From: Pelagomonas calceolata
Taxonomy: Eukaryota
Assembly (NCBI GenBank): GCA_918797485.1
Contig: CAKKNE010000001.1
Location: forward strand, 3,162,001-3,226,000
DNA length: 64,000 bases
Direction: 5' to 3'
Below are positions 31,168-34,259 of this stretch, piece by piece; the first letter of the stretch is position 1, and each line of letters begins with the position of its first letter. A program made the translations under genes and the position numbers. The notes under the pieces were generated by a model that was given only the letters and a program-made list of their open reading frames with translations, made no database searches and was not told where the DNA came from.

Positions 31168-31395
31168 ACGCCGGCTGGCGTCGCCCGTTCGGAACCCCCC
31201 ACCATGCGGAGGCCCTCTATGCGGCCCCTCCGTCCCCTTTTCCGAAACGCGCTGCCCATATCCCGTCGAACGTTATAAAAAGAACTATGTGACATCAGCC
31301 TGTCTGCCATTCTGTCGGCGCGGGACCAGGGTGGGGCTGCCGCAGTTGTGAGAGCAACCTGCCAACGCAGCCCAATACGTCGAGCGCGACGATAA

Positions 31396-32189
31396 ATGCT
31401 GGTATAACTTTCAACACCACGCCGCTGCACCGGTCTGGCGCCGGTGCACAGTCGGCAGCGCCACGCGGAACAATTGCGCACCACGCTGCCGGCTTTGCCC
31501 GCCTCTCGGTGTGCATAGCTGCAAGGAACGAGGCGGGCTGCATCGGCCGGTGCATCGCGAGCGTCCGGAGAGCCTTCGCGGCGTGCGACGGCGCGACGCT
31601 CGAAGTAATTGTGGCGGATGGCGGCTCAACGGATGCGACGGCGGACATAGCGCAAGACCACGGCGCGGCGGTCGTCGCGTCTTCCGGAGGCGGCCGCGGC
31701 GGCGCGTTTGTGGATGCCGTGGCCGCTTCGAGCGGCGACGCGCTCCTGTTGCTCCACGCCGACGCGACGCTCTCTGAAAATGCCATCGCGGCGCTGCCGC
31801 GGCGCTGGGCCGTCGTCTGCTACGCGCCTCGGTTCGACCGGCGGGGCCCGCACTGGCGCGCCCTCGAGGCGTGGTGCGGCCTCGACTCGGCCTGGTCGAC
31901 GTTCGGCGACGCGGGGATCGTTCTGCGCCGCGAGTGCTGGGACGCCGTCAGCGGCGGCCCGCGCTGGCCGCTCTTCGACGACGTCGAATTGTTGCGGCGG
32001 CTCCGGAAGCGCGGTTTGCGGGTGGTGAAGCTCCGTTCCGCCCGTACGACCTGCGACGCGCGGCGCTTCGACGCCGCCGGCTTCTACGCCTATTTGTGGA
32101 CGTGCTTCCGGTTGTTGCTGCGATACCGGCTCGGCGGGGACGTGTATGAGCTCGCGGAGGCGTACGCGCGCGGCAATCCGGCCTCTTAG
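31396..32189 (+). CDS. GT2-family glycosyltransferase (TIGR04283-like); predicted micro-exon 31396-31401 and intron 31402-31451
   Basis: LSVCIAARNE, VIVADGGSTDAT, LLLLHAD, FGDAG, PLFDDVEL, DARRF. The main ORF has no ATG; a 50-nt GT-AG intron supplies ATG CTG in frame. Confidence 0.75.
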
Positions 32190-32452
32190 CCTGTAAATCG
32201 TTTTTTTTTGTGGATGAATACTGGCTAGCGGTTTGTAAGACACTAGAAAGCTAGATGCACAAGACATTGACGACGTCGAGCAAGAAAATCCCCGGCCGAC
32301 GGCGCGAGGCTTACAAGACATTATTACAAGCTCGTACTCCGGTCACAGATAGGCGCAGTAAAAGCTCGGCCTTCCGCAGCGCCCGGAATGCTTCCGCAGC
32401 GCCAGCAGGCATCGCGACAGCACTTTGTCACGGACATTTGACCTGTCCAAAA

Positions 32453-34186
32453 ATGGCCACCTGCACGCTCACGTATGGCAACGACACGCACTCCTTCCCC
32501 CTGGATTCCAGCGGTGCGAGCTATTTTAAGCTCTTGCGTGAGGCGCGCGCCGCCTTCGCGCTTGACAACGTTGGGATTAGGATCAAGGCCGCGCCGGGCC
32601 GCTTGAGTGCAGTTCCCATGCTCAAAAAAGCAGAACTCACGGACGGCGCCGTCGTGTTTTTGGACGATTACGGGCTCGATTACGAGCTCTTACGCTCCGG
32701 TTACGGGCTCTACACGCTCGAGGAGTCCCGAGGCACGTGCGTAGAACACATCCACTGGTTCGAATCGCCCCAACTAGTGGTCGAGACCCCCGTGCTCGGG
32801 CCGCCGGACCAGTCGGGCTCGACCCTCCACGCCACCTCCGCCCCGACCTCGTCGCCGGTGACGGGCACCTTTCAGATCTACGTAAAGACGCTGACGGGCA
32901 AGGCCCTCACGCTGCGGGTGACGAGCTCGTCGACGATTGACGACGTAAAGCAGAAGATCCAGGACAAGGAGGGCATCCCGCCCGACCAGCAGCGCCTCGT
33001 CTTCGAGGACAAGCAGCTCGAGGACCGCGGGACGCTGCGCGACTACAACATCCAGCCGAAGTTGACCCTCCACCTCATTCTCCGCTTGCGCGGCGGCATG
33101 TACACCCCGCCATCGGCGCAGGGCGGCCTCCCCAAGACGTTCACGGTCATGACTCCGAGGGGCGGCGAGCACGAGGTCACGTGGACCTTCGAGAGCCTGG
33201 ACGACGTCATCGAGCGCGTGCGGAAGATGGACGAGGAGGAATACGCCTGCGAGCGGCGCGCGGGCGAGGACGACGCGGCCTACATCGCGCGGCTCAAGGC
33301 CCTGGCGGAGGGCTGGCGGCGGGAGGCGAGGGAGATAGGCGCGGAGGAGGCGAAGAGCGCGTGAGGCGCGGCGCCGGCCTTGGCGGAGGCCGAGCTCGTG
33401 GCGCTGCTGCGGCGCGAGGACGCGGCGCGGCGGGCGCCGGAGACGCAGAGGCGGATGGAGGAGGCGGAGCGGCGCGGCACGAGCGACTGGATCGAGGTCG
33501 CGACGGCGGTGCAGCGGCGCGTCGCGCGCGAGTCGTTGCCGGCCGGCGCGAGCGAGGGAGACGTGGACGCGCGGGTTACGGCGGTGCGGTACGCGGCGCA
33601 GCGCCACCCGGAGTGTTGTCATTGGGTGCGCTTCAACCGCGCGCGTGTCGGCGATTTGCGGGAGGGCGACGCGGCGCCGGATTGTAAGCTTTGGCATCTC
33701 GATGGCGCGGCGACGTCGCTGCTCGCGGACCGTGACGAGGCTAAGCCGCTCGTCGTGGTCTCGGGCTCGCTCTCGTGACCGCCCTTCCGGCGCATCGCGC
33801 CGGAGATCGACGCCATGGCGCGGTCGCCGGCCGGTGCCGCGGCGGCGGACTGGCGCTTCGTGTACGTGGCGGAGGCCCACGCCCAGGACGAGTGGCCGCT
33901 CCGCTCGGCGCGCTTTTCGGCGGACGGCCAACCGGTGGTTGTCGACCAGCCGAAGACGCTCGACGCGCGCCTGGGACTCGCGCGGCGCTTCAAAGCCGAC
34001 TACGGTATCGAGTCGCCGCTCCTCGTGGACGACCCGGCCGACGAGGCGTTCGAGCGCCTCTACGCGCCGTGGCCGCTGCGCCTCTACGTCGTGCGCGGCG
34101 CGACGCTCGCCTGGATCGCCGAGCCCGACGGCGCGACGTTCGAGCCGGCCGTGGCCCGGCTCCGCGCCATGTTCAACCTCGAGTGA
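32453..34186 (+). CDS. Ubiquitin-domain / iodothyronine-deiodinase-like selenoprotein; in-frame TGA at 33362 and 33776
   Basis: ORFs 32255-33364, 33380-33778 and 33815-34186 are one frame separated only by TGA codons. Ubiquitin unit at 32870-33097; deiodinase motifs [38 protein letters not shown]. Sec at 33776 is well supported; readthrough at 33362 is inferred. Confidence 0.8.
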
Positions 34187-34199
34187 GGCTTCCTCTCCC

Positions 34200-34259
34200 G
34201 CGCGACCCGTGACGGCGCGCGGCGGCTACATCCTGGCCGCCGCGGGCCCGAATCCGCGC
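34200..34259 (+). promoter_or_regulatory. Eukaryotic SECIS element (GUGA core)
   Basis: GTGAC (34209-34213) / CGAA (34249-34252) quartet; helix II 34214-34226 pairs with 34236-34248 (12 of 13 Watson-Crick); helix I GCGCG (34200-34204) / CGCGC (34255-34259). Confidence 0.8.

What the first reader, a model, noticed from the sequence alone, without database searches (positions are those of the whole stretch)
32453..34186. Ubiquitin-deiodinase-like fusion frame punctuated by two recodable UGA codons
Seen: one frame runs from ATG 32453 to TGA 34184-34186 (577 codons before the stop), interrupted only by TGA at 33362 ([17 protein letters not shown]) and 33776 (SGSLS*PPF). It contains an exact 76-aa ubiquitin unit ending LRLRGG followed by Met. 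After the first TGA there is no AT-rich or promoter-like spacer. The protein-like segment [14 protein letters not shown] lies before the next ATG (33455). Established: SxUPPF and YxxEAHxxDxW define deiodinase-family selenoproteins, and deubiquitinases cleave after LRGG. Inference: one mRNA with one SECIS yields either a short ubiquitin-domain protein (stop at UGA1) or, when selenium is available, a two-Sec fusion. UGA1 could act as a selenium-dependent gate, and DUB cleavage could release the enzyme. I do not know of this architecture being described.
Basis: partly seen in the sequence, partly recalled or inferred. Interest (0 to 1): 0.92.

Follow-up and report, generated by a model that had tools for sequence, protein, structure and literature searches.

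The report
Selenoprotein gene with extra gating stop

Summary
Observation confirmed. UGA2 (33776) is the catalytic selenocysteine codon of a deiodinase-like (PF00837) domain, with a covarying SECIS-type hairpin at 34200-34259. The ubiquitin-linker-deiodinase-like fusion is an old eukaryotic architecture: 9 of 150 distant hits (glomeromycete fungi, green algae, unnamed sources) carry it with no stop in the linker. UGA1 (33362) is special to one clade that includes an Aureococcus-type locus. It is TGA and in frame in 14 of 15 fetched loci (three separate lineages), with spacers of 12, 18 or 21 nt and no ATG before a conserved helix. It lies in a flexible linker and is not a cysteine site (2 of 19 relatives). 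One assembled contig spans the junction unspliced. Against: raw reads nearly vanish over 33387-33468 (78-80% GC), depth is about fourfold lower downstream, and one lineage has a broken ubiquitin part with an intact enzyme part. Best reading: one mRNA, partial recoding at UGA1, probably to selenocysteine (0.55). The gate function is inferred.

The parts
32256..32283 (+). Likely transcript 5' ends
   Evidence: Pile-ups of molecule ends at 32256-32283 in 4 of 4 raw poly(A) RNA runs of one sample (table 6); strand assumes the usual stranded protocol
32453..32869 (+). N-terminal part (residues 1-139), no Pfam family; low-confidence strand-helix model; variable among relatives
32870..33097 (+). Ubiquitin-like domain, 76 residues, ending LRLRGG; predicted deubiquitinase cleavage site before Met216
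   Evidence: PF00240 E 3.8e-24; Foldseek to ubiquitin, rmsd 0.5-1.8 A; cleavage inferred
33098..33361 (+). Linker: short strand-strand-helix piece, acidic stretch, helix; in 7 of 14 related loci it ends in a basic KKQRR-type motif, which the window allele lacks
33362..33364 (+). UGA1, clade-conserved in-frame stop in a flexible linker; likely recoded part of the time
   Evidence: TGA in 14 of 14 loci that have the ubiquitin part; pLDDT under 50 at residues 296-307
33386..33631 (+). Helical domain typical of this deiodinase-like family, beginning 69 nt upstream of the first ATG (33455)
   Evidence: pN/pS 0.16-0.43 in 6 of 7 pairwise comparisons for the pre-ATG part, 0.78 in the seventh; helix present in 41 of 150 distant hits; pLDDT mostly 82-97
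33632..34186 (+). Deiodinase-like thioredoxin-fold catalytic domain with terminal TGA at 34184-34186
   Evidence: PF00837 54.8 bits, cut-off 27; DIO3 4TR3 E 3.9e-9; Foldseek DIO2 9H48 E 5e-12
33776..33778 (+). UGA2, catalytic selenocysteine codon in S-L-S-U-P-P-F
   Evidence: Aligns with the Sec-to-Cys position of DIO3; relatives have C, W or a stop here; TGA in all 11 of 15 loci that reach it intact
34200..34259 (+). SECIS-type hairpin, core GUGA 34209 and GA 34250, no apical AA
   Evidence: 5 of 20 pairs with changes on both sides in 6 sequences; only hit of my pattern in 64 kb; no Rfam SECIS match

Best explanation
This is one gene of an old ubiquitin-deiodinase-like fusion family whose mRNA carries two in-frame UGA codons and one SECIS-type hairpin; UGA2 is predicted to give the catalytic selenocysteine, and UGA1, gained in the linker in one pelagophyte-type clade, is likely recoded part of the time (most likely to selenocysteine), so it would gate synthesis of the whole enzyme part. 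Shown: the frame, the conservation of both UGAs, the covarying hairpin, and uninterrupted fusions in distant relatives. Inferred: ribosomes that stop at UGA1 make the 303-residue ubiquitin module alone; those that pass both UGAs make the 577-residue protein; a deubiquitinase would cut after Gly215 and release an 88-residue tail or a 362-residue two-Sec oxidoreductase. Inferred purpose: two recoding steps make enzyme output fall more steeply with selenium than one would, and stopping at UGA1 avoids making a dead helical half-enzyme, while the ubiquitin module is made regardless.
For: UGA1 is TGA and in frame in 14 of 15 loci; the 15th (L015, 41% identity) has no ubiquitin part and no stop there. 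These are three separate lineages (DNA identity of the enzyme part to the window 91-94%, 84%, 78%). Spacers of 21, 12 and 18 nt all keep the frame, and none has an ATG in the first 80 nt. In L010/L011 the terminal stop is TAG while UGA1 and UGA2 stay TGA. TGA is only 11 of 35 ORF stops in the window. The segment between UGA1 and the first ATG evolves as coding sequence and is a family-wide helix. 9 of 150 distant hits carry ubiquitin-GG-Met, linker and deiodinase-like part with no stop in the linker; five were named as glomeromycete or chlorophyte proteins or not named (Ambispora, Cetraspora, Edaphochlamys, Chlamydomonas sp.; P0146 and P0148 unnamed). BLASTP runs ungapped across UGA1 against P0146. 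On a 46-row tree the four UGA1 rows fall in one group (100/96) with five proteins that were all called from the same Val/GTG position, and uninterrupted fusions lie on several branches outside it. Run X5 gives one 1311-nt contig over 33100-34287 with no differences, ending where RNA depth ends; no joints in 7 different runs. SECIS covariation. One SECIS can serve distant UGAs in some genes (PMC3737529, passages read).
Against: No Sec/Cys pairing at UGA1: Cys lies in the matching 12-residue window in 2 of 19 relatives, about 15% expected, and P0146 has Leu there; only L015 aligns a Cys to it. Raw-read depth is 0-0.38 over 33384-33457 in 4 of 4 runs of one sample, and in X21 it is 66-81 upstream against 10-23 downstream at similar GC. 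X5 is only guessed to be RNA, and a contig does not prove one transcript. None of the shown X16 or X18 pieces has 31 letters on both sides of UGA1 (17 of 59 pieces shown). L007/L009 have a stop and a frameshift in the ubiquitin part while the enzyme part stays under purifying selection (dN/dS 0.17). 20 of 42 anchored rows have short N-termini, so the enzyme part may exist alone. Some SECIS elements serve only UGAs near the natural site (PMC3737529). No conserved stem-loop follows UGA1. Rfam found no SECIS.
Confidence: 0.55

Rival explanations
1. One mRNA and one protein, but UGA1 is passed by ordinary leaky read-through with a near-cognate tRNA (Trp, Cys or Arg), independent of selenium; it only throttles the enzyme to a fixed low ratio against the ubiquitin module.
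For: All the evidence for translation through UGA1 applies equally. The site is not a Cys position and sits in a low-confidence linker. Conserved non-Sec UGA read-through has precedent in insect SPS1-UGA (PMC4561486, passages read).
Against: A SECIS is present on the same mRNA and is needed for UGA2 anyway. The context is UGA-G, and the hexanucleotide reported for SPS1-UGA is absent. No conserved downstream stem-loop.
Confidence: 0.15
2. UGA1 is a true stop: the ancestral fusion has been split, and the enzyme is made separately, by re-initiation or a second transcript, from GTG 33398 or ATG 33455.
For: Near-zero raw depth at 33387-33468 and lower depth downstream. The Val codon is GTG in all loci whose DNA was printed that far, and ATG 33455 has an equivalent in 14 of 14. 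L007/L009 keep an intact enzyme part behind a broken ubiquitin part. Many distant relatives are called with a Met inside the same helix.
Against: The four residues before the GTG are conserved out to L015, and the L007 and L010 spacers hold no start-like codon. Depth rises gradually downstream with no pile-up of molecule ends, and at most 3 of 203 X21 reads had an unfitting part, so no poly(A) junction shows. Wild metatranscriptome contigs tile across the gap, which points to GC dropout in the raw runs. The frame is kept through two length changes (chance about 1 in 9). P0158 is called from the Met although its near twin P0146 is fused, so short calls can be truncations.
Confidence: 0.22
3. 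An intron starting at the GTGAG that overlaps UGA1 (33361) removes the stop in mature mRNA.
For: GTGAG is kept in all 14 loci and the window. An Aureococcus gene model joins the N-terminal part to the enzyme while skipping both UGAs (P0268).
Against: No joint in 7 different runs; the X5 contig is unspliced. No pyrimidine tract follows, and the nearby AG sites end in-frame GAG codons, which would shift the frame. The P0268 model also deletes the catalytic motif, the usual artefact at Sec codons. Caveat: raw depth at the site is too low to exclude a minor form.
Confidence: 0.05
4. UGA1 is a sequencing error or a private nonsense allele.
For: Distant homologues have sense codons in the linker.
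Against: Same TGA in 14 loci from other assemblies and three lineages; no other letter at 33362-33364 in any run laid.
Confidence: 0.01

Closest known systems
DI-like (deiodinase-like, PF00837) selenoproteins of protists, invertebrates, fungi and bacteria
   Same: S-x-U-P-P-F and E-A-H-x-x-D-x-W motifs, thioredoxin fold, Sec codon at the catalytic position, 3' SECIS. The class is named in bioRxiv 10.1101/314781 (passages read).
   Different: N-terminal ubiquitin module and helical domain; a second UGA far upstream in a non-catalytic linker. That paper has 0 occurrences of 'ubiquitin'. Substrate unknown.
Vertebrate iodothyronine deiodinases DIO2 and DIO3 (PDB 9H48, 4TR3)
   Same: Catalytic core fold and motifs.
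   Different: About 23% identity; a soluble helical domain and ubiquitin module sit where the vertebrate enzymes have a membrane anchor (anchor recalled, not from a call).
Ubiquitin-fusion precursors (UBA52, RPS27A, FUBI-S30)
   Same: Ubiquitin-like domain ending in GG fused to an unrelated protein; deubiquitinases process such precursors (PMC4522658, PMC10611586; search listing and abstract start only).
   Different: Here the domain is internal, about 70% like ubiquitin, fast-evolving, and present in 1 to 6 copies among relatives.
Selenoprotein P (several UGAs, short and long forms)
   Same: Termination at upstream UGAs gives short forms, regulated by selenium (PMC5133445, passages read).
   Different: SELENOP has two SECIS elements, a catalytic first Sec and a storage tail. 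Here there is one SECIS, and the non-catalytic UGA comes first and separates two unrelated modules.
Insect SPS1-UGA
   Same: Conserved in-frame UGA inferred to be translated from conservation on both sides (PMC4561486, passages read).
   Different: SPS1-UGA sits at the ancestral Sec position and lacks a SECIS; UGA1 is a newly gained codon in an mRNA that has a SECIS.

Membership tests
DI-like / PF00837 selenoproteins | Profile match above the curated cut-off | tested here: met
   54.8 bits against cut-off 27; NCBIfam NF038285 matches at 87.3 bits but below its 250 cut-off
DI-like / PF00837 selenoproteins | UGA at the catalytic S-x-U-P-P-F position with Cys in homologues | tested here: met
DI-like / PF00837 selenoproteins | Thioredoxin-type deiodinase fold with E-A-H motif | tested here: met
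   AlphaFold2 pLDDT 79-98 over the domain; Foldseek DIO2 TM 0.80, DIO3 TM 0.77 by target length
DI-like / PF00837 selenoproteins | SECIS in the 3' UTR | tested here: met
   RUGA and GA core invariant in 6 of 6 sequences, 5 of 20 pairs compensatory; no apical AA, which is not universal; Rfam gave no SECIS hit
Iodothyronine deiodinases proper | Removes iodine from iodothyronines | not testable with these tools
   needs an enzyme assay
Iodothyronine deiodinases proper | N-terminal membrane anchor | not tested
   no transmembrane predictor run; no long hydrophobic stretch is evident
Standard Sec site (criteria applied to UGA1) | In-frame UGA conserved, with coding conservation on both sides and a SECIS downstream | tested here: met
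Standard Sec site (criteria applied to UGA1) | Aligns with conserved Cys in homologues | tested here: not met
   2 of 19 relatives, about 15% expected; Leu in P0146; one Cys match in L015
Standard Sec site (criteria applied to UGA1) | Selenium found at that residue | not testable with these tools
   needs 75Se labelling or mass spectrometry
Ubiquitin-fusion precursors (UBA52 type) | Ubiquitin fold ending in a GG motif before the partner | tested here: met
   GG-Met kept in 9 of 9 distant fusions
Ubiquitin-fusion precursors (UBA52 type) | Near-invariant ubiquitin at the very N-terminus | tested here: not met
   internal, about 70-73% identical to ubiquitin, 60-94% among close loci
Ubiquitin-fusion precursors (UBA52 type) | Cleavage by a deubiquitinase | not testable with these tools
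   inferred from the motif only
SELENOP-type multi-Sec proteins | Two SECIS elements and a Sec-rich tail | tested here: not met
   one hairpin by my pattern in 64 kb; two UGAs only

The most novel reading that the evidence does not exclude
UGA1 is a purpose-kept, non-catalytic selenocysteine codon that works as a selenium sensor: one mRNA always makes a fast-evolving, GG-ended ubiquitin-like module, and makes the deiodinase-like oxidoreductase only when Sec-tRNA is plentiful, with deubiquitinase cleavage freeing the enzyme. It would be a regulatory Sec codon gained inside an old and apparently undescribed ubiquitin-deiodinase-like family, in bloom-forming and open-ocean pelagophyte algae.
Probability: 0.33. 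Interest if true: 0.85.

Novelty: new variant of a known kind. Interest (0 to 1): 0.66.

Why it matters
Selenocysteine codons are normally found by their match to a catalytic cysteine. A conserved UGA that fails that test, yet must be passed to reach the real Sec codon, would be a regulatory use of recoding that current selenoprotein finders miss. It gives a two-codon, one-SECIS natural reporter for how selenium supply sets enzyme output in marine algae. It also exposes a ubiquitin-deiodinase-like family, with Sec forms in algae and Cys forms in mycorrhizal fungi, that public annotation splits or mis-splices and whose substrate is unknown.

Tried and rejected
No whole genome is held for this window, so Sec machinery, paralogues and genome-wide stop usage were not checked. 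A word-based search for longer fused relatives found none among 7995 candidates; the unfiltered search then found them. Rfam: no SECIS family, four weak unrelated matches at E 0.8-9. ESM Atlas: hits at 0.82-0.83 only, a lead at most. Viral and prokaryote genome collections: no relatives. The idea that UGA1 is a hidden Sec/Cys site came from L015 and was rejected on the wider set. A conserved recoding stem-loop after UGA1 was not seen in 7 loci. A general UGA reassignment is unlikely: the other 10 TGA-ending ORFs score 0.20 or less for coding after the stop. I suspected a natural sense-codon allele because one 90% cluster mixes ubiquitin-part and enzyme-half proteins; none appeared among 14 loci, and the cause is unexplained. 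The ORF set used as background (35 ORFs of 200 codons or more) was picked by a simple GC3 rule and may include pieces of spliced genes. The SECIS pattern was written after I had seen the hairpin. In one search one row (P0181) was anchored about nine residues off and three rows had no anchor. A full multiple alignment view of the linker against P0146 was not obtained; that claim rests on the pairwise. Papers: the ISME J 2013 Aureococcus selenium paper is not held and the supplement of PMC7539508 could not be read; either could list this gene, so the claim of novelty is limited by that.

Full report
Observation. The frame is as described: ATG 32453 to TGA 34184-34186, 577 codons, interrupted only at codon 304 (TGA 33362, UGA1) and codon 442 (TGA 33776, UGA2). 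Residues 140-215 are a 76-residue ubiquitin-like domain ending LRLRGG before Met216 (PF00240, E 3.8e-24), and the part after UGA1 matches PF00837 at 54.8 bits. Public annotation holds the ubiquitin part (303 or 369 residues) and the last 123 residues as separate proteins. The region after UGA1 is 78-80% GC and has the best in-frame codon score after any of 35 ORF stops in the window.

Organism. No genome is held. Close relatives are abundant in marine assemblies, and the cluster that matches locus L010 contains a protein named from Aureococcus anophagefferens. The window is 78% identical to L010 over the enzyme part, so I infer a different pelagophyte alga. This was not tested further.

UGA2 and the SECIS. 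UGA2 sits in S-L-S-U-P-P-F and aligns with the Sec-to-Cys position of mouse DIO3. In distant hits this position is Cys, Trp (read-through calls) or the end of the called protein. An AlphaFold2 model on a 35-row alignment is confident for the ubiquitin, helical and catalytic domains, and Foldseek ranks DIO2 first and DIO3 ninth. A hairpin at 34200-34259 has an invariant RUGA/GA core in 6 of 6 sequences, with 5 of 20 pairs changed on both sides, 0 of 500 shuffles reaching that. It lacks the apical AA, which bioRxiv 10.1101/314781 notes is not universal (passages). Rfam did not detect it. The terminal TGA is 22 nt from the core, too close for recoding by the spacing rule I recall.

UGA1 in close relatives. 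A metagenome scan gave 15 loci. In 14 of 15 a ubiquitin-module frame ends in TGA directly in frame with the enzyme part; the 15th (L015, 41%) has a short N-terminus and no stop. The 14 reduce to three lineages: the window group, L007/L009 (99.9% alike, 84% to the window) and L010/L011 (98.7% alike, 78% to the window). The spacer from TGA to the conserved helix is 21, 12 or 18 nt, always whole codons, and the first ATG lies 82-91 nt on. The last 13-20 codons before UGA1 differ in length and sequence between alleles, yet the junction stays. L010/L011 end in TAG but keep both internal TGAs. The 23 codons between the spacer and the first ATG show pN/pS of 0.16-0.43 in six pairs and 0.78 in one, much like the codons after the ATG (small counts).

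The family. An unfiltered search found 1559 relatives; of the best 150, 41 carry the N-terminal helix and 9 carry ubiquitin-GG-Met, a linker and the deiodinase-like part with no stop in the linker. Named ones are from Ambispora and Cetraspora (Cys forms, some relatives with a ZZ finger and up to six ubiquitin domains), Edaphochlamys and a Chlamydomonas. BLASTP against P0146 runs without a gap across UGA1, which faces a Leu. Cys lies in the matching window in 2 of 19 relatives with a long enough N-terminus, no more than the 15% expected; only L015 offers a Cys match. On a tree of the helical half (46 rows; three unanchored rows and P0181, P0055 left out; midpoint root for drawing only), the four UGA1 rows group with P0049, P0051, P0052, P0054 and P0119 at 100/96, and fusions without the stop lie on four branches outside. 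Those five proteins were all called from the Val/GTG position, which suggests a stop just upstream, but their DNA was not seen except for the twins of L009 and L010. The simplest history is an ancestral fusion and one gain of UGA1; no root test was run. UGA1 lies in a low-confidence linker, residues 296-307.

RNA. Four raw poly(A) runs of one sample show a plus-strand transcript with 5' ends at 32256-32283, no joints, and depth of 0-0.38 over 33384-33457. At finer scale X21 falls from 66-81 to 0.4 at 33387-33468 and recovers slowly to 10-23, with no pile-up of ends and at most 3 of 203 reads partly unfitting. The hole coincides with the GC maximum. Run X5 (guessed RNA) gives one 1311-nt contig covering 33100-34287 without differences and ending where RNA depth ends. 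Two wild metatranscriptomes tile across the site with no change at 33362-33364, though no shown piece has 31 letters on both sides (17 of 59 pieces shown). GC dropout is the likelier cause of the hole, but the fourfold lower downstream depth at similar GC is not explained, and a short mRNA form cannot be excluded.

Against the reading. Besides the depth and the lack of Cys pairing, L007/L009 carry an in-frame TAG and a one-base frameshift in the ubiquitin part, while their enzyme part has dN/dS 0.17 and their SECIS shows compensatory changes. Either the gene died recently or the enzyme can be made without the ubiquitin frame; an in-frame ATG just after the frameshift would still have to pass UGA1. 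Also 20 of 42 anchored rows have short N-termini, although P0158 shows that such calls can be truncations of a fused gene.

Mechanism. Most likely one mRNA is read from ATG 32453. Termination at UGA1 gives the 303-residue module; recoding at both UGAs gives the 577-residue protein. With a SECIS on the mRNA, selenocysteine is the likeliest residue at UGA1 (0.55), against plain read-through (0.15), a true stop with separate initiation (0.22), splicing (0.05) and error (0.01). PMC3737529 (passages) shows that some SECIS elements serve any UGA and others only nearby ones, so one SECIS for two distant UGAs is possible but not assured. PMC5133445 (passages) gives the precedent for short forms by termination at upstream UGAs; PMC4561486 (passages) gives the precedent for non-Sec read-through. 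Cleavage after GG is inferred from the motif, its conservation in 9 of 9 distant fusions, and known precursor processing (search listing). The gate function, with a steeper selenium response and no dead half-enzyme, is inference only.

Novelty. Deiodinase-like selenoproteins are known. Paper searches returned no description of a ubiquitin-deiodinase-like fusion or of a linker UGA; the fusion passages of PMC7539508 (passages) list other fusions only, and PMC2874816 (passages) was not relevant. The Aureococcus selenium paper and the PMC7539508 supplement could not be read. Earlier scan notes had nothing by sequence and nothing with all the words. Verdict: a real, conserved feature; a new variant of a known kind; interest 0.66.

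Noticed in passing
L007:411-560 and L009:3693-3840: Ubiquitin part broken by an in-frame TAG and a one-base frameshift in both assemblies, with a stop overlapping an in-frame ATG; enzyme part and SECIS intact.
   Followed up: partly
L006:412-1947: Allele or paralogue with two ubiquitin-like domains and a SAP domain (PF02037) before UGA1.
   Followed up: partly
L010:1587-2272: Two ubiquitin-like domains, the second apparently split by an intron.
   Followed up: no
window 32453-33361 against L002, L006, L008, L012, L013: The ubiquitin module varies far more (74-85% DNA identity in the ubiquitin domain) than the enzyme part (91-94%) in the same loci; L002 shows dN/dS near 2 on few codons. Possible diversifying selection or module swapping.
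   Followed up: partly
L002, L006, L007, L009, L010, L011, L012, last codons before UGA1: Basic KKQRR-type motif resembling a nuclear localisation signal (label recalled, not tested); replaced by another sequence in the window allele and 7 other loci.
   Followed up: no
window 32388-32441 (+): 17-codon out-of-frame upstream ORF between the transcript 5' ends and ATG 32453. The public 369-residue model starts at 32255, at or before the RNA 5' ends.
   Followed up: no
window 31293-32189 (+): Family 2 glycosyltransferase most like TIGR04283 (126.6 bits, below the 182 cut-off); not found by tblastn in the otherwise syntenic L009.
   Followed up: partly
protein cluster 4: One 90% cluster mixes 303-residue ubiquitin-module proteins with 127-residue enzyme halves, hinting at an unseen fused member; not found.
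   Followed up: partly
P0003: Enzyme half joined to an N-terminus resembling APC6/Cdc16 (label recalled, not tested); single contig, probably chimeric.
   Followed up: no
P0149, P0163, P0177, P0206, P0218: Cys-form ubiquitin-deiodinase-like proteins, two named from glomeromycete fungi, three with a ZZ zinc finger, with 1 to 6 ubiquitin domains.
   Followed up: partly
P0268: Aureococcus gene model that skips both UGAs and loses the ubiquitin domain and catalytic motif, probably a prediction artefact.
   Followed up: partly
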